From: an uncultured Francisella sp.
GTDB lineage: Bacteria; Pseudomonadota; Gammaproteobacteria; Burkholderiales; Neisseriaceae
DNA length: 64,000 nucleotides
Assembly: GCA_943913135.1 (NCBI GenBank)
Contig: CALTVE010000002.1
Coordinates: 283,981 to 347,980 of the forward strand
Direction: 5' to 3'
Positions 26,401 through 32,400 of the stretch are shown here, piece by piece. The position numbers were made by a program. Position 1 is the stretch's first letter, and each line of letters begins with the position of its first letter.

Positions 26401-29400
26401 ATTCCTTTTGCGCAGGTCCGATTATATTTCCTGGAGAAAGACATGCCTTCAGCATTTCGCTTTAATCCACTATTAATGAAGAAGTGGCATTTAGACAGCG
26501 GTCGGGTGGAGATACACTGGACAGGTAGTCGCGAATAGAATGAGGTAAATTTAGGATAATTTGGTGAACTTAAGAACCCTTCTACTTTTTCTATTCGTTT
26601 TATCCTGTGTCACCTTGTATTTATTAGCAGTGGCCACGGGGCATACCAGCAAGCTTTCTGAATACTTTGCCAGTTTATTTACGGTTAATTTGTTAATCGT
26701 TCTTTCTCTTTCTTATTTATTAAGCCGTCAATTTATCAAATTGTGGCGAGATCGACGGGACAGGGTCTATGGATCTAAGCTGTCTTTATCGATGATTAAG
26801 CGTTTTACTTTAGTTGCGGTACTTCCGGGACTTTTTCTTTTTGCCGTTTCTGCTCAGTTTATATCGCACAGTATTAACTCTTGGTTTAGCGATAGCACGC
26901 GTGAAGCCTTGGATCGCAGTTTAAATCTATCAAAAATCTCTTTAAATAATTTTACCGGCACCGTCACCGAACATGCGCAGCTGGCAGCTTTAAAGGTGCA
27001 ATATGGGTTAAGCTTAGGTCAGAGCTTGTCGGATGTATTCTCCAGTGCCGCAATGGATTTTTCTAAGTTTGATCAAGTGGCCATTTTTAATCCACAAGGT
27101 GAAGTTTTGCAGGTTAGTAGCAACCCTTTAGGACTGCCTTGGCCATCGGTAGGAGAAACGGATTGGACCCATGTAGCCAATAGTTTGCTTTATACCGATA
27201 CGGAAATATACCGCGGTAAATTATATTTAGAAATTTTCATTCACGTATATTCACAGCATCAGCCGGAAGTAATTTTGTTTTTTCGCCAGAAAGTGCCAGA
27301 AAACATAGCCACTGACGTCGATTTAATTACCAAAGCTAACGAAAAATACGCTGAACTTACCTATCACAAAAAAGGCATTCAGCTGATGTTTATTTTGACT
27401 TTATTGGTAGCGACTTTGCTGTCTATTTTTTTAGCTCTTTTGGCCGCGATCGTTTTTTCACGTCGTTTTGTGGAACCGTTAATCGCGCTCTCTGATTCAA
27501 CCACCGCTGTTTCTAAGGGCGATTTTTCTAAGAAGAACCCCGTGTGGCGCGATGATGAATTGGGTGAATTATCGGAAAGTTTTAATAAAATGACCGATGA
27601 ATTGAAAACCGAGCGAGAAAAGTCGCGCCTTCTTTTTGCCAAAGAAGAAGAAGCGCGCGCTTATTTTGAAAGTGTATTACTCAATTTAACTACGGGCGTG
27701 ATTACGCTTGATGCCAACGGCTATGTAAAGACTTATAACCACAGTGTAGAAGTCATTTTAGATTGTTCTTTAGCCCCTTATTTGGATTTACCCTGGTATG
27801 CCTGGGCTACTGAAGACGCGCATATTAGCTTTCTAAAAGCCTTTATGAAGGCCCTTTTCCCAAAAGCTGACGGCCACGCATTGGAATTTGAATACAGTGT
27901 GAATGATAACGTCCAAATACTACTGGGTAAGGCTTTGCGGCTACAAGGAGGGCAGGGATTAGTGATGGTGTTTGATGATGTGACCACTTTGGCTAAAGCG
28001 CAAAAAGAAGCTGCGTGGGGGGAGGTGGCCCGCCGTTTGGCGCATGAAATTAAAAATCCTCTAACCCCTATTCAGCTATCAGCCGAGCGGGTGCAATGGA
28101 AATTGACCGATAAGCTAGAAAAAAAAGATGCTGATCTATTAGCGCATGCCACCCATACCATTATTCAACAGGTTGCCGCCTTAAAAGAGATGGTCGAAGG
28201 GTTTAGAAATTATGCTCGTAAAGTATCTTTAAATTTAGAATTAATTGATTTTAATGATTTATTAAAAGAGGTGTTGCATCTTTACGAAGGAATGGATTGT
28301 ACTTTTACCACAAACTTGAGTAAGATGAGCCTACCTGTACGAGTAGATGCCACTTCTGTGCGCCAGGTTTTGCATAATTTGTTGAAAAATGCTACAGAAG
28401 CAGCCCAAGAAAGCATTCATCCAGAAATAAACATACGTACTTGGGTAAAACAAGATAAAGTGATGGTGCAAATAGAAAACAATGGTAAGGGGTTTAGTGC
28501 GCACATGCTACAGCATGCGTTTGAACCCTATATCACAGATAAAGCTGAAGGCACAGGCCTCGGTTTAGCGGTGGTTAAGAAAATTATTGATGAACATGGA
28601 GGAAGAGTTCACCTAGCCAATTGTGCAGATGGCGAAGGGGCTCGCGTTACTCTAATTCTAAGCTTGGTACACAGGTAGTTGAGAGTGGCAAATGAGAAGT
28701 ACGGATATATTGATCGTAGATGATGAAGTAGGCATACGTGATTTGCTATCTGAAATTTTACAAGACGAAGGCTATTCGGTGACTACCGCTGAAAATGCGG
28801 AAGTAGCAAGGAAATTAAGACTGCAAACTCGTCCTGCGATGGTGCTTCTGGATATCTGGATGCCTGATTGTGATGGGATCACTTTGCTTAAAGAGTGGGC
28901 AGAAGGAGGGCTACTCACCATGCCAGTAGTGATGATGAGCGGTCATGGCAGTATCGATACGGCGGTAGAAGCGACTAAAGTCGGCGCACTGAATTATCTA
29001 GAAAAACCGATTACGATGCAAAAATTACTGGAAACAGTGCGTCAGGCAATGAAACACAGCAGTGCACAGCCTTCTAACGATTTTTCTCTCAACAAGCTTG
29101 GAAAAAGTGAAAAAATTCAAGAGCTCAACCATGAATTACGTCAAGTAGCAAAAACCAATAATGATGTATTGCTTTGCGGCGAGCCAGGGTGCCCGTTTGA
29201 TATCGTCGCTCGTTATTTTCAAAAAGATAATAGTCCTTGGATTATTCCTAAACGTATTGAACACTGGCGAGAGCAGAAGATTGAATGGCTTCAACACGCT
29301 CGCGGCGGGGTCGTGTATCTTGGCGATATCAGCCAATATGACAAGGTGGCGCAAGAAGATTTGTTCTCTACCATGCAAAAAAGGGCAGAATACGGTGTCC

Positions 29401-32400
29401 GTTTTATTGGGTTTTTGACCCAACCCTTAAGTCAGATTTATTCCGAAGGTGGATTTAATCTGCAGTTTATTGAGGAGCTGTCTAATTCTGTTATTAGCGT
29501 GCCGACCTTGCGTGAACAGCTGTCCGATTTATTCTTTCTTATCAATAATCTTCTTAATCAAATGGTGGAGAGTCGGCAGGTAAAAATGGTGCGGTTTACG
29601 GTAGGGGCGCTAAACGAATTAACTGAATATTATTGGCCGGGCAATATGGATCAATTGCGGCACGTCATCAAGAATCTTGCTTTAAATGCCATCGACAGTG
29701 TTGTCGATGAGCAGCAGGTTATTGCCCTTTTAGGCCGGTACAAAAATGATTATCGCCAGGATTTTGCTGGTTTTGATTTCAATCAATCTCTTCGAGAATT
29801 GCGTGAAGAAGTGGAAAGAGCGTATTTTGAATACCATTTGCGCAAAGAAAACAATAATATGAGTCGTATTGCCCAGCGGGTAGGCTTGGAAAGAACGCAC
29901 TTATACCGTAAGTTCAAGCAATTGGGCGTCAATTTTTCTAAAAGGAAGTAGTCAGGTCTTGAATGACAAAGAAAAAAACTACTTACCGCAATAAAATTAA
30001 GATTATCGCAGGAAGCAAACGTTCACGTCTCATTCATTTTCCTGATATAGAAGGATTACGTCCGACCTTAGGAGTGATGAGGGAGCGTTTATTTAATTGG
30101 TTGGGGCAAGAGCTTAGTGGGAAAAAAGTACTGGACTTGTTTTCAGGTTCTGGTGCACTGGCTTTCGAAGCTGCATCACGGGGGGCGAAAGAGGTGGTGG
30201 CCGTAGAAAAAAATCATCCGGCGTGTGTAGCGATAGCGCAAAATAGTTGTGCTTTAGGGTTGGAAACAGTTAAAGTTTGTGAACGCGATGTTTTGGCTTT
30301 TTTGAAGGAAAGTAGGGAAAAATTCGATATTCTTTTTATCGATCCCCCGTATTCTTGGGACCAATGGCAAAAGATTTGGCCACTTTTGCAAAATGTACTC
30401 ACTTCGGATGGATTAGTTTATCTTGAAGGAAAAAAAAACTTACATTTACCTGAAAATATAGATATTCTTAAAGAAAGTCGCTTACATGGACAACATTATT
30501 ATTTAACAACGCTGATTTCTGGCCCATGCCTACAGTAAATGTTACAGCGAAGATAAAAGATCCGAATCATTTACGTAGAATCGGGATATGTACGTTGTGT
30601 GGTTTTTCTTCAGGACTGCCTCTATCCTTTCTGCTCAGTTTAATTCCTTTATGGATGCGCACGGCCGGTGGAATAGATTTAATCACTATTGCTGCCTTTA
30701 GCTTATTACAGCTTCCCTAATAAACTAAAATTCTTATGGGCCCCGCTGCTTGATCGTTATACTTTACCTTTTTTAGGACGCCGTCTCGGTTGGCTAATGG
30801 TATTGCAATTGCTCTTGCTTATCATCATGGCGGCGTATTCCTTACTCCATCCGGGTAAGAAATTACTTGCTATAGTGGTTTTAACTGGCTTACTGACTTT
30901 TATTTCTGCAACTCAGGATATTGTCAGCGATGCTTTACGTCGGGAAATTTTAAGTGACCACGAGTTAGGCTTGGGAAGTTCTTTATACGTGACCGCCTAT
31001 CGGTTGGCCAATTTAGTACCAGGTTCTTTGGCCCTGGTGCTTTCTGACCACCTGCCTTGGTTCTGGGTATTTATTATTACTTCACTGTTTATGTTGGTAG
31101 GTTTATGGATTATTCCTTTGACTCATGAGCCTAAAGTCAACATTGCCGCACCAAAAAATATACAAGAGTTAATCATTGCCCCTTTAAAGGAATATTGGCA
31201 ACGAAGAGGATCGAAAATGGTCATTTTAGTGATGGCTTTCTTTTTTCTTTATAAATTTGGCGATAATTTAGCCAGTGGGGCATCGGTGGTATTTTATAAC
31301 GATATTGGTTTTAGCCGCACGGTGATTGGCACAGTGGTAAAGTATTCGCAGGTCAGCACTTCTATTATTGGCACTATTATCGGGGGTATTTTGATGCTTA
31401 AAACTGGTGTCAATCGAGCGTTATGGTTGTTTGGTATAGTGCAGCTGATTTCTATTTTGGGTTTTGCTTGGCTGGCTTCTTTTGGTTATCTTCATCACAT
31501 AGGGAGAATGGAAGAATTATATTTGGCCTTAGTGGTTGCTTTTGAATACTTGGGGGTGGGGCTTGGTACGACAGCTTTTATTGCTTATTTAGCGCGCGAG
31601 ACTAATCCTGTATATGCTGCCGTCCAGTTAGCTTTGCTATCGGCCATCGCTACTACTCCGCGTACGATTTTTGGTGCTTATTGGGGTAAATTAGTAGAAA
31701 TATTTGGTTACTATCACTTTTTCTGGCTCTGTTTTTTCCTAGCCTTGCCTGGTATGATCATTTTATTATGGGTGGCTCCCTGGAATGAAAAGACTAGAAA
31801 AAATTAGGAAGGAGTAAAACATGAGCAGTTACTTAAAGGATTTAGCACAGAAAGCAAAAATTGCTGGACGCTCACTGGCTACTTTAGCAACTGCTCGAAA
31901 AAATGCAGTTCTGATTAGTTTGGCGGATTTACTAGAAGAAAAAAAAGAGGATATTTTTGCGGCCAATGAAAGAGATATCGTGGCTGCTAAAGAAAAAAAT
32001 TTGCCTGCTCCTCTGCTCGGGCGTCTTAAGCTAGACAATACGATTTTAGCAACTATGTGCCTGGGGATAAAACAGATTGCTGCGATGACGGACCCTGTAG
32101 GCGAATTAGAAGGGTTTCATTACCAAAATTCGGGTATTTTGGTGGGCAAGCGGCGTGTGCCTTTAGGAGTGGTGGGCATGATTTATGAGGCGCGTCCCAA
32201 TGTCACCATCGATGCGTTCGCACTTTGTTTTAAAGCAGGTAATGCAGTAGTGCTGCGCGGCGGCACTGAAGCGCTAGGCACAAACCAAGTGTTGGCGGCG
32301 ATGGTGCAAGAAGCCTTAAGGCAGCAGGAAGTAGATGAAAACTCGCTCTGTTTCGTGTCAAAGACAGATCGAAAACATGTAGGGGAGATGTTACAGGCTG

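What the first reader, a model, noticed from the sequence alone, without database searches (positions are those of the whole stretch)
28692..29951. NtrX-like regulator with a dead AAA+ sigma54-activator module downstream of fmt-rsmB
The receiver domain and the Fis-type HTH are canonical. In the central domain the Walker A lysine is lost (GEPGCPFD) and Walker B is lost (YLGDI). The GAFTGA sigma54-contact loop is missing, yet the WPGN sensor-II region is retained. The protein therefore cannot act as a conventional enhancer-binding ATPase. It more likely works as a phosphorylation-controlled sigma70-type repressor or activator, as in genomes lacking rpoN. The cognate kinase (26561-28678) and a small exported protein (25948-26538) form a three-gene module with it.
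Basis: partly seen in the sequence, partly recalled or inferred. Interest (0 to 1): 0.6.

Follow-up and report, generated by a model that had tools for sequence, protein, structure and literature searches.

The report
Neisseriaceae NtrX regulator with dead ATPase
This gene is the ordinary Neisseria-family version of the NtrX/PlrR response regulator, whose ATPase-like middle domain lost all its catalytic parts long ago. That loss, and the three-gene sensor module around the gene, are already described in the literature.

Summary
ORF 28692-29951 encodes a 419-aa protein with a receiver domain, a shortened AAA+-like domain and a Fis-type HTH.

- The Walker A lysine is F169.
- Walker B DE is G211-D212.
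- Both arginine fingers are gone (N256, E262).
- The sensor-II arginine is D320, although WPGN is kept.
- The GAFTGA/L1 loop and the pre-sensor-I loop are both deleted.

This is not recent decay. All 80 Neisseriales orthologues fetched have Phe at the Walker A lysine position and an acidic residue at the sensor-II arginine position. They include N. gonorrhoeae, whose central domain is PDB 3CO5, and N. elongata, reported to have a working RpoN. The central domain is under purifying selection (median dN/dS about 0.1).

The fmt-rsmB-DUF4390-ntrY-ntrX order is conserved. It matches the Bordetella rsmB-plrP-plrS-plrR cluster described in 2026.

Papers from 2022 and 2026, citing work from 2013 and 2016, already say that beta-proteobacterial NtrX lacks a working AAA+ ATPase.

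The protein most likely acts as a phosphorylation-controlled, ATP-independent DNA-binding regulator that does not use sigma-54.

The suggested link to loss of rpoN is not supported. This is a new member of a known kind, of low interest.

The parts
23831..24751 (+). fmt (methionyl-tRNA formyltransferase); conserved upstream neighbour
   Evidence: ORF. Found upstream in nearly all related loci that reach that far. Pfam Formyl_trans_N/C on the orthologue in L088.
24744..25970 (+). rsmB (16S rRNA m5C967 methyltransferase); conserved 5' neighbour of the module
   Evidence: ORF. Pfam NusB and Methyltr_RsmB-F on the identical gene in L083. Synteny. The literature reports rsmB 5' of plrP-plrSR.
25948..26538 (+). 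DUF4390 periplasmic protein, the PlrP-like third component. The start could instead be 25936, as a gene caller chose.
   Evidence: Pfam DUF4390, E 1.3e-20. N-terminal hydrophobic segment at aa 6-31. The gene caller's start corresponds to 25936. Function of PlrP.
26561..28678 (+). NtrY/PlrS-like sensor histidine kinase. It has four hydrophobic segments with a loop of about 175 aa (aa 95-270) between the third and fourth, which I take to be periplasmic. These are followed by HAMP, HisKA (H495-E496-x-x-N499) and HATPase_c.
   Evidence: Pfam NtrY_N, HAMP, HisKA and HATPase_c. Hydrophobic segments and the HEIKN motif. The motif corresponds to PlrS H521/E522/N525.
28692..29951 (+). NtrX/PlrR-like response regulator, 419 aa
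28707..29039 (+). Receiver domain (aa 6-116). Acidic pocket D10/D11, phospho-acceptor D54 (nt 28851-28853), S83 and K105.
   Evidence: Pfam Response_reg, E 1.8e-27. LLDIWMPD is identical in all 81 sequences. D10, D11, D54, S83 and K105 are invariant in alignment A1. Median dN/dS 0.015.
29097..29510 (+). Shortened, catalytically dead AAA+ alpha/beta subdomain (aa 136-273; Pfam Sigma54_activ_2)
   Evidence: PF14532 matched over its full length, E 1.1e-29. Matches 3CO5 at E 3.7e-24. Motif analysis. Model pLDDT is about 80-90 over most of the region. Median dN/dS 0.095.
29178..29201 (+). Degenerate Walker A, GEPGCPFD. P168 replaces Gly, F169 replaces the catalytic Lys and D170 replaces Glu/Thr.
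   Evidence: DNA read. Alignment. Phe is found at this position in all 80 Neisseriales orthologues.
29316..29330 (+). Degenerate Walker B, YLGDI. G211 replaces Asp and D212 replaces the catalytic Glu.
29454..29480 (+). Former arginine-finger segment, FNLQFIEEL. N256 and E262 stand in place of the two Arg residues.
   Evidence: Alignment with NtrC FREDLFHRL and PspF FRADLLDRL.
29511..29726 (+). AAA+ lid subdomain (aa 274-345). WPGN (29634-29645) is kept, but the sensor-II Arg is replaced by D320.
   Evidence: Pfam AAA_lid_14, E 2.7e-10. WPGNMDQL here against WPGNVRQL in NtrC. WPGN followed by x-[DE] in nearly all orthologues.
29802..29921 (+). [quoted passage not shown]
   Evidence: Pfam HTH_8, 26.1 bits against a cut-off of 22. 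The region aa 367-419 has 72% mean identity across Neisseriales and median dN/dS 0.045.
29963..30538 (+). rsmD (16S rRNA m2G966 methyltransferase). It starts 11 nt after ntrX. It is downstream context and not a conserved part of the module.
   Evidence: TIGR00095, 127.9 bits against a cut-off of 117.5. Found downstream in only a minority of related loci.

Best explanation
The gene is the orthologue, in an uncultured Neisseriaceae bacterium, of the beta-proteobacterial NtrX/PlrR response regulator. It works together with the NtrY/PlrS-like kinase and the periplasmic DUF4390 (PlrP-like) protein encoded just upstream.

Proposed mechanism:
1. The DUF4390 protein acts on the large loop of the kinase between its third and fourth hydrophobic segments. 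I take this loop to be periplasmic. The protein thereby shifts the kinase's balance between kinase and phosphatase activity.
2. The kinase, phosphorylated on H495, controls phosphorylation of D54 in the receiver domain.
3. Phosphorylation changes the oligomeric state of the regulator and so the way its Fis-type HTH binds DNA.
4. Transcription is activated or repressed without ATP hydrolysis and without contacting sigma-54, most likely at sigma-70-type promoters.

The central region is a shortened pseudo-AAA+ domain. It keeps the fold but has lost every nucleotide-handling residue and both sigma-54-contact loops. It is kept by selection, most probably as a structural or oligomerisation scaffold between the receiver and the HTH.

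Shown here: domain anatomy, motif losses, orthology, synteny and purifying selection.
Taken from the literature on relatives: the role of PlrP, the dimer-tetramer behaviour of PlrR, the respiratory targets in gonococcus, and the sigma-70 use and self-repression seen in atypical EBPs.
Inferred: promoter class, scaffold role and target genes in this organism.
For: Domain architecture: REC + PF14532 + AAA_lid_14 + HTH_8.

Motif losses against NtrC, PspF and Brucella NtrX:
- K to F (Walker A) and DE to GD (Walker B).
- Both arginine fingers and the sensor-II arginine are lost.
- The Walker A-Walker B and Walker B-sensor I spacers are 37 and 27 residues, against 60 and 37.

Orthology:
- The best homologues are Neisseriaceae proteins at 54-74% identity over the full length.
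- N. gonorrhoeae NtrX is 54% identical (L080). Its central domain is PDB 3CO5 and carries GEAGSPFE and LYVGDI.

Age of the trait:
- All 80 Neisseriales orthologues have Phe at the Lys position and an acidic residue at the sensor-II Arg position.
- The 18 closest 50%-identity cluster representatives all have the short architecture and none has the Walker A Lys.
- In a tree built from REC and HTH columns only, 31 short-type sequences, including this one, form a pure clade.

Selection: median dN/dS is 0.095 for the central domain and 0.17 for the lid, against 0.015 for REC and 0.045 for the HTH region.

Fold: the AlphaFold model (mean pLDDT 75) matches Brucella NtrX and bEBP AAA+ domains. TM-score normalised to the target is about 0.65, with rmsd about 4 A over about 240 columns.

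Synteny: fmt-rsmB-DUF4390-ntrY-ntrX is conserved.

Literature:
- rsmB-plrP-plrS-plrR is conserved in beta- and gamma-proteobacteria, and PlrP restrains PlrS phosphatase activity (PMC13001219).
- Gonococcal NtrX controls aniA, norB and cytochrome c peroxidase (PMC12697260).
Against: - There are no functional data for this protein or organism.
- The promoter class is inferred, not observed. The simple sigma-70 scan found no convincing + strand promoter inside the cluster, so the module's own promoter is not located.
- DNA binding by a beta-type NtrX/PlrR was not documented in the papers I could read. says it was not yet known whether PlrR binds DNA.
- The scaffold role of the dead domain is a guess from conservation alone.
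- Bordetella PlrR was not compared with this protein by sequence here. The link rests on synteny, domain content and the paper's inclusion of N. gonorrhoeae.
Confidence: 0.85

Rival explanations
1. The dead central domain is a relic of ongoing gene decay in a host-associated, possibly shrinking genome. On this view the protein is losing function, or is a pseudogene in the making.
For: - The nearest genomes include a 1.6-Mb Neisseriaceae genome, CP046107.1.
- A neighbouring ampG-like gene in this window is frameshifted.
- plrP is missing in CP046107.1.
- The central domain is the least conserved of the folded domains, at 38% mean identity.
Against: - The ORF is intact, and the identical protein is found in 806 blocks of the metagenome collection.
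- The same motif state is present in all 80 Neisseriales genomes fetched, including large free-living Chromobacterium and Vogesella.
- Median dN/dS for the central domain is about 0.1.
- The spacer lengths of 37 and 27 residues are fixed across distant relatives.
- plrR is reported to be essential in Bordetella.
Confidence: 0.03
2. The protein still feeds into sigma-54-dependent transcription in an unconventional way. It could join mixed rings with an intact bEBP, or it could act as an anti-activator that poisons such rings.
For: - The AAA+ fold and lid are retained.
- Some Neisseriaceae have a working RpoN and the bEBP Npa.
- Databases name the family 'sigma-54-dependent transcriptional regulator'.
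Against: - The L1 (GAFTGA) and L2 loops that touch sigma-54 are deleted.
- The arginine fingers needed to complete a neighbour's active site are gone.
- The same protein is kept in N. gonorrhoeae. Pathogenic Neisseria are reported to have switched pilE transcription from RpoN to RpoD.
- PlrR forms dimers and tetramers; rings are not mentioned.
- No rpoN box, no GAFTGA protein and no excess of -24/-12 sites occur in the window.
Confidence: 0.04
3. The remodelled pocket of the pseudo-AAA+ domain binds a ligand, such as a nucleotide without hydrolysis or a second messenger like c-di-GMP. This would give the regulator a second input besides phosphorylation, as in FleQ or VpsR.
For: - The glycine scaffold of the P-loop (G163, E164, G166) and F169 are invariant in Neisseriaceae.
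- The domain is under purifying selection.
- VpsR, which works with c-di-GMP, and FleQ, solved in c-di-GMP-bound and c-di-GMP-free forms, are structural neighbours.
Against: - All phosphate-contacting residues are gone: the Walker A Lys and Thr/Glu, the sensor-II Arg and the arginine fingers.
- Outside Neisseriaceae the same positions vary freely, for example GENGIAFD, GERGVMPE and AESGAGAE. That argues for a structural role rather than a ligand-binding role.
- No binding motif was identified here.
Confidence: 0.08

Closest known systems
Neisseria gonorrhoeae NtrX (central domain solved as PDB 3CO5; ntrX mutant described by Atack et al. 2013, J Bacteriol 195:2632)
   Same: - 54% identity over the full length (L080).
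- The same REC, short pseudo-AAA+, lid and HTH_8 architecture.
- The same dead motifs: GEAGSPFE and LYVGDI.
- The same gene order as in the other Neisseriales loci.
- N. gonorrhoeae is one of the beta-proteobacteria in the published rsmB-plrP comparison.
   Different: - A different, uncultured lineage; its nearest genome is only 74% identical.
- Small residue differences: C167 instead of Ser and D170 instead of Glu.
- The regulon here is unknown.
- rsmD lies downstream here, which is not the usual arrangement in Neisseria loci.
Bordetella PlrP-PlrS-PlrR system (Wolber et al. 2026, PMC13001219; Barr et al. 2022 preprint)
   Same: - The gene order: rsmB, DUF4390 protein with a signal sequence, NtrY-type kinase, NtrX-type regulator.
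- The H-E-x-x-N motif of the kinase (H495/E496/N499 here, H521/E522/N525 in PlrS).
- A regulator described as lacking the AAA+ ATPase.
- A phospho-acceptor Asp followed two residues later by Trp.
   Different: - trkA-trkH follow plrR in Bordetella, whereas rsmD follows here.
- PlrP is described as proline-rich and this protein is not.
- The sequence relationship to PlrR was not measured here.
- The internal promoters found in Bordetella were not detectable with the simple scan.
Brucella abortus NtrX (PDB 5M7N/5M7O/5M7P), the alpha-proteobacterial type
   Same: - Best match among solved structures: E 2.6e-48 by sequence, covering the full length, and best Foldseek match at 29% identity.
- REC, AAA+-like and HTH_8 domains.
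- No GAFTGA.
- Regarded as an atypical EBP that does not use sigma-54 and represses its own promoter.
   Different: - Brucella NtrX keeps Walker A GAGKE, Walker B LDEV, both arginine fingers and the sensor-II Arg.
- It has near-canonical spacers of 56 and 37 residues.
- It was crystallised with ATP and with ADP.
- Its gene follows ntrBC, not rsmB-DUF4390.
- The NCBIfam NtrX model scores this protein 222.8 bits against a cut-off of 600.
Canonical bacterial enhancer-binding proteins (E. coli NtrC, PspF; Pfam PF00158)
   Same: The overall three-domain plan of NtrC. The fold of the central domain, with TM-score to target about 0.65. The GExG start of the P-loop, the PPLR-type linker and the WPGN motif.
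   Different: All features needed for ATP hydrolysis and sigma-54 remodelling are absent. PF00158 aligns to only 42 of its 168 positions.
Other atypical EBPs that act with sigma-70 (V. cholerae VpsR, E. coli TyrR, R. capsulatus HupR, P. putida PhhR)
   Same: An EBP-derived architecture without GAFTGA, and regulation of sigma-70 promoters by DNA binding rather than ATP-driven remodelling. VpsR is a structural neighbour.
   Different: In the description read here these proteins vary the GAFTGA motif, and only some have non-consensus Walker motifs; VpsR has ND instead of DE in Walker B. From general knowledge, they keep a full-length AAA+ domain and usually an intact Walker A. This protein has lost everything and is about 33 residues shorter in the core.

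Membership tests
Sigma-54-dependent enhancer-binding proteins (bEBP, Pfam Sigma54_activat PF00158) | Walker A GxxxxGK[ST/E] with the catalytic lysine | tested here: not met
   GEPGCPFD, with F169 at the Lys position.
Sigma-54-dependent enhancer-binding proteins (bEBP, Pfam Sigma54_activat PF00158) | Walker B hhhhDE | tested here: not met
   VYLGDI, with G211-D212 in place of D-E.
Sigma-54-dependent enhancer-binding proteins (bEBP, Pfam Sigma54_activat PF00158) | GAFTGA motif on the L1 loop, and the L2/pre-sensor-I insertion, which contact sigma-54 | tested here: not met
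   There is no GAFTGA in the protein or in any frame of the window. About 23 residues of the L1 region and about 10 of the L2 region are deleted, leaving spacers of 37 and 27 residues against 60 and 37.
Sigma-54-dependent enhancer-binding proteins (bEBP, Pfam Sigma54_activat PF00158) | Arginine fingers and the sensor-II arginine | tested here: not met
   FNLQFIEEL against FREDLFHRL, and WPGNMDQL against WPGNVRQL.
Sigma-54-dependent enhancer-binding proteins (bEBP, Pfam Sigma54_activat PF00158) | Full-length match to the PF00158 profile | tested here: not met
   Only model positions 3-44 of 168 align, at 28 bits. PF14532 matches over its full length instead.
Sigma-54-dependent enhancer-binding proteins (bEBP, Pfam Sigma54_activat PF00158) | ATP hydrolysis and activation of -24/-12 promoters together with rpoN | not testable with these tools
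   The window has no RpoN box and no excess of -24/-12-like sites. The rest of the genome could not be searched.
Alpha-proteobacterial NtrX (NCBIfam NF051870) | Score at or above the curated equivalog cut-off | tested here: not met
   222.8 bits against a cut-off of 600, in two stretches.
Alpha-proteobacterial NtrX (NCBIfam NF051870) | Nucleotide-binding AAA+ domain with intact Walker A and B, and a location downstream of ntrBC | tested here: not met
   The motifs are lost. The upstream genes are fmt-rsmB-DUF4390, not ntrBC.
Beta/gamma-proteobacterial NtrX/PlrR-type regulators | REC + short Sigma54_activ_2 (PF14532) + AAA lid + HTH_8 architecture, about 410-435 aa | tested here: met
   The same architecture is annotated on all listed full-length homologues, and the spacer lengths are the same in the closest representatives.
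Beta/gamma-proteobacterial NtrX/PlrR-type regulators | Orthology to the characterised member, N. gonorrhoeae NtrX | tested here: met
   54% identity over residues 1-418 in L080. The 3CO5 sequence is identical to the L080 central domain and matches this protein at E 3.7e-24.
Beta/gamma-proteobacterial NtrX/PlrR-type regulators | Gene immediately downstream of an NtrY-type kinase, itself preceded by a DUF4390 gene and rsmB | tested here: met
   The order is conserved in nearly all of the 80 loci that are long enough. It is described in PMC13001219.
Beta/gamma-proteobacterial NtrX/PlrR-type regulators | Intact phospho-acceptor site in the receiver domain | tested here: met
   D10, D11, D54, S83 and K105 are present and invariant in alignment A1. 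LLDIWMPD is identical in 81 of 81 sequences.
Beta/gamma-proteobacterial NtrX/PlrR-type regulators | Phosphotransfer from the adjacent kinase, and sequence-specific DNA binding | not testable with these tools
   Needs biochemistry. PlrS-PlrR phosphorylation chemistry was studied in Bordetella.

The most novel reading that the evidence does not exclude
The shortened pseudo-AAA+ plus lid region may not be a passive relic. It may be a selected module with a job of its own. One version is that it sets the dimer-tetramer equilibrium and the cooperative DNA binding of this regulator class. A bolder version is that it binds a small ligand in the remodelled P-loop pocket, which keeps an invariant GExG...F in Neisseriaceae, and so adds a second signal to phosphorylation. 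The literature says the domain is 'lacking', so its retained fold and its dN/dS of about 0.1 have not been explained.
Probability: 0.15. Interest if true: 0.45.

Novelty: new member of a known kind. Interest (0 to 1): 0.15.

Why it matters
Mostly as a matter of annotation. Databases label this family 'sigma-54-dependent transcriptional regulator', and some comparative studies count NtrX among sigma-54 activators. Yet the Neisseriales and beta-type proteins cannot hydrolyse ATP or contact sigma-54.

One small open question remains. A catalytically dead, shortened AAA+ domain has been kept under purifying selection across a large clade. Its role, perhaps as an oligomerisation scaffold, is not known.

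The module is also kept in a 1.6-Mb Neisseriaceae genome, and plrR is essential in Bordetella. Together these suggest a housekeeping role that would be worth defining.

Tried and rejected
- **rpoN in the genome.** Only the 64-kb window could be searched. A six-frame regular-expression search found no RpoN box and no GAFTGA.
- **Sigma-54 promoter pattern.** TGGCAC-N5-TTGCW with up to 2 mismatches gave 27 matches against 31 expected by chance. This is uninformative.
- **Internal promoters as in Bordetella.** The simple sigma-70 scan of 23000-31000 found fewer sites than shuffled sequence (7 against 16.6). None lay on the + strand in the 3' ends of rsmB or ntrY.
- **Primary papers.** Atack 2013, Bonato 2016, Bone 2017 and the journal version of Barr 2023 are not held. 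Their content is cited only through papers that quote them.
- **Recent-decay hypothesis.** Rejected on conservation and dN/dS.
- **c-di-GMP binding like FleQ or VpsR.** I compared motifs by eye only and found no support.
- **ORFs overlapping inside ntrX** (29136-29423 on the - strand, 29161-29418 on the + strand). I treated these as frame artefacts of the real gene.

Full report
**The observation**

The ORF at 28692-29951 (+) is real and encodes 419 aa. Pfam finds four domains:
- a receiver domain (aa 6-116, E 1.8e-27);
- Sigma54_activ_2, PF14532 (aa 136-273, matched over the whole model, E 1.1e-29);
- AAA_lid_14 (aa 274-345);
- a Fis-type HTH_8 (aa 371-410, 26.1 bits against a cut-off of 22).

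The canonical bEBP model, PF00158, aligns only to aa 137-178. GEPGCPFD is at 29178-29201, YLGDI at 29316-29330 and WPGN at 29634-29645.

**Realignment against reference proteins**

I aligned the protein with four kinds of sequence:
- E. coli NtrC, fetched;
- E. coli PspF, fetched;
- Brucella NtrX, with its sequence taken from the PDB alignment;
- 106 full-length cluster representatives from the 1.84-billion-protein library.

| Feature | E. coli NtrC | This protein |
|---|---|---|
| Walker A | GESGTGKE | GEPGCPFD (F169 for Lys) |
| Walker B | LFLDEI | VYLGDI (G211-D212 for D-E) |
| Arginine fingers | FREDLFHRL | FNLQFIEEL (both Arg lost) |
| Sensor II | WPGNVRQL | WPGNMDQL (D320 for Arg) |
| Walker A to Walker B spacer | 60 residues | 37 residues (GAFTGA/L1 loop deleted) |
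| Walker B to sensor I spacer | 37 residues | 27 residues (pre-sensor-I/L2 loop deleted) |

The statement that the sensor-II region is retained is only half right.

**What the protein is**

- The best homologues are full-length proteins of Neisseriaceae at 54-74% identity. All are about 420-430 aa and have the same Pfam content.
- The exact sequence occurs in 806 blocks of the metagenome collection, on contigs of up to about 400 kb. The source is an abundant uncultured Neisseriaceae. Its nearest genome in the species collection is 'Neisseriaceae bacterium PsAf' at 74%.
- The best match among solved structures is full-length Brucella NtrX (5M7N, E 2.6e-48).
- The next informative match is 3CO5 (E 3.7e-24). 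I showed that 3CO5 is identical to the central domain of N. gonorrhoeae NtrX in locus L080. It carries GEAGSPFE and LYVGDI, so the orthologous dead domain already has an experimental structure.
- The NCBIfam NtrX equivalog, which models the alpha-proteobacterial type, scores only 222.8 bits against a cut-off of 600.

**Is the degeneration recent or ancestral?**

- In 14 diverse Neisseriaceae sequences, G163, E164, G166 and F169 are invariant, and the consensus reads GExGSPFE and YLGDI.
- All 80 Neisseriales orthologues fetched from genomes have Phe at the Walker A lysine position. Nearly all have WPGN followed by x-[DE] where the sensor-II arginine should be. They include N. gonorrhoeae, N. 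elongata, Kingella, Eikenella, Snodgrassella, Chromobacterium and Vogesella.
- The 18 closest 50%-identity representatives, down to 38% identity, all have the 34-37/27 spacing, apart from one with a 31-residue Walker A-Walker B spacer. None has the Walker A lysine.
- In a neighbour-joining tree built only from receiver and HTH columns, 31 short-type sequences, including this one, form a pure clade. The tree has no bootstrap support values.
- Codon analysis of 366 orthologue pairs gives the following median dN/dS values.

| Region | Median dN/dS |
|---|---|
| Receiver | 0.015 |
| HTH region | 0.045 |
| Central domain | 0.095 |
| Lid | 0.17 |

The dead domain is therefore old and maintained by selection. 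It is not decaying.

**Fold**

An AlphaFold2 model built from 38 sequences has a mean pLDDT of 75, and about 80-90 over most of the central domain. It retrieves Brucella NtrX first and then bEBP AAA+ domains. TM-score to the target is about 0.65 and rmsd about 4 A over about 240 columns. The region still looks like an AAA+ core plus lid.

**Neighbours**

- Upstream lie def, fmt and rsmB.
- Next is a 196-200-aa DUF4390 protein (E 1.3e-20) with an N-terminal hydrophobic signal-like segment.
- Then comes a 705-aa kinase. It has four hydrophobic segments and a loop of about 175 aa between the third and fourth, which I take to be periplasmic. HAMP, HisKA (HEIKN, H495) and HATPase_c domains follow.
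- The gaps are 22, 13 and 11 nt, and rsmB overlaps the DUF4390 gene by 23 nt.
- tblastn of the window's proteins against the 80 loci shows fmt-rsmB-DUF4390-ntrY-ntrX in nearly every locus that extends far enough. The downstream rsmD is variable.

**Literature**

- Wolber et al. 2026 (PMC13001219) describe exactly this cluster in Bordetella as rsmB-plrP-plrS-plrR. They report that rsmB and the DUF4390 gene precede 98% of the closest plrS homologues, and N. gonorrhoeae is in their comparison. They give genetic evidence that periplasmic PlrP restrains the phosphatase activity of PlrS through its periplasmic domain. Citing Bonato et al. [quoted passage not shown]
- Barr et al. (preprint 10.1101/2022.10.06.511181) say the same, citing Atack 2013 and Bonato 2016. 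They report a dimer-tetramer equilibrium for PlrR and note that DNA binding had not yet been shown.
- A review reports that gonococcal NtrX controls aniA, norB and cytochrome c peroxidase.
- Atypical EBPs without GAFTGA (TyrR, HupR, PhhR, HsfA, VpsR and Brucella NtrX) are known to work with sigma-70, or in the case of Brucella NtrX to repress their own promoter.

**The rpoN idea**

Within the window there is no RpoN box and no GAFTGA protein in any frame. Matches to a -24/-12 pattern are at chance level, 27 against 31 expected. The rest of the genome could not be searched.

The comparison answers the question anyway. N. elongata is reported to use a functional RpoN and the activator Npa for pilE. 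Its NtrX (L071) has the same dead motifs. From my own knowledge, flagellated Chromobacterium species also encode RpoN, and their NtrX has the same motifs too. The loss is a lineage trait that does not depend on whether rpoN is present.

**Most likely mechanism**

1. The DUF4390 protein modulates the kinase through its large, presumably periplasmic, loop.
2. The kinase sets the phosphorylation level of D54.
3. Phosphorylation alters the oligomeric state, with the pseudo-AAA+ and lid region serving as a rigid, nucleotide-independent scaffold.
4. The Fis-type HTH binds DNA and activates or represses transcription without ATP and without sigma-54.

The anatomy, orthology, synteny and selection are shown here. 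The roles of PlrP and the kinase come from Bordetella genetics. Promoter class, scaffold role and targets are inferred.

**Rivals**

- Ongoing decay is contradicted by conservation and dN/dS.
- A hidden sigma-54 role is contradicted by the loss of the contact loops and arginine fingers. It is also contradicted by retention of the protein in the gonococcus, since pathogenic Neisseria are reported to have moved pilE transcription from RpoN to RpoD.
- A ligand-binding pocket is not excluded. It is weakened because the P-loop positions vary freely outside Neisseriaceae.

**Verdict**

However, the feature is a published property of a known family, with a solved structure of the orthologous domain. 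This protein is a new member of a known kind.

Two things are left over. One is an annotation point: the name 'sigma-54-dependent regulator' is misleading for this family. The other is a modest open question: why has a dead AAA+ core been conserved?

Noticed in passing
window 30526-31807 (+): The ampG-like MFS permease gene after rsmD is split by a frameshift near 30715. A 64-aa ORF (30526-30720) carries the N-terminus, and a 372-aa ORF (30689-31807) in another frame carries the rest. The orthologue in CP046107.1 is a single 474-aa ORF. The DNA is identical in five independent metagenome assemblies, so this is not a sequencing error. It is probably a pseudogene, or else a gene that needs frameshifting.
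   Followed up: partly
L088 5363-5886 (CP046107.1, a 1.6-Mb Neisseriaceae genome): The DUF4390/plrP gene is missing between rsmB and ntrY. The 520-bp gap is full of stop codons and has no detectable remnant, while ntrY and ntrX are intact. This is notable because plrP is essential in Bordetella when PlrS is intact. Two of the 80 genome loci also showed no DUF4390 hit.
   Followed up: partly
L004 and L016 (CALTZA010000002.1, CAJPTP010000137.1): Two MAGs labelled 'uncultured Francisella sp.' carry a Neisseriaceae-type NtrX (62% and 55% identity). L004 has GETGSPFE at the Walker A position. The taxonomic labels look wrong, or the bins are mixed.
   Followed up: no
window 28692-29951 and metagenome loci L083-L087: The exact 419-aa protein is listed in 806 blocks of the public assembly collection, on contigs of up to about 400 kb. 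No species-representative genome is closer than 74%. This is an abundant, uncultured Neisseriaceae lineage of about 42% G+C.
   Followed up: partly
26 representatives (e.g. P0141-P0150, P0144): Among the relatives there is a graded series of central-domain states. It runs from full length with all motifs (2 of 106), through intermediate lengths (spacers of 41-52 residues, some with the Walker A Lys but no DE), to the 37/27 fully dead form. None of the 106 has GAFTGA. This suggests stepwise and possibly repeated degeneration of EBP ATPase domains.
   Followed up: partly
window 2899-3607: Three tRNA genes lie here: two on the + strand and one on the - strand. They are the only Rfam matches in the window.
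   Followed up: no
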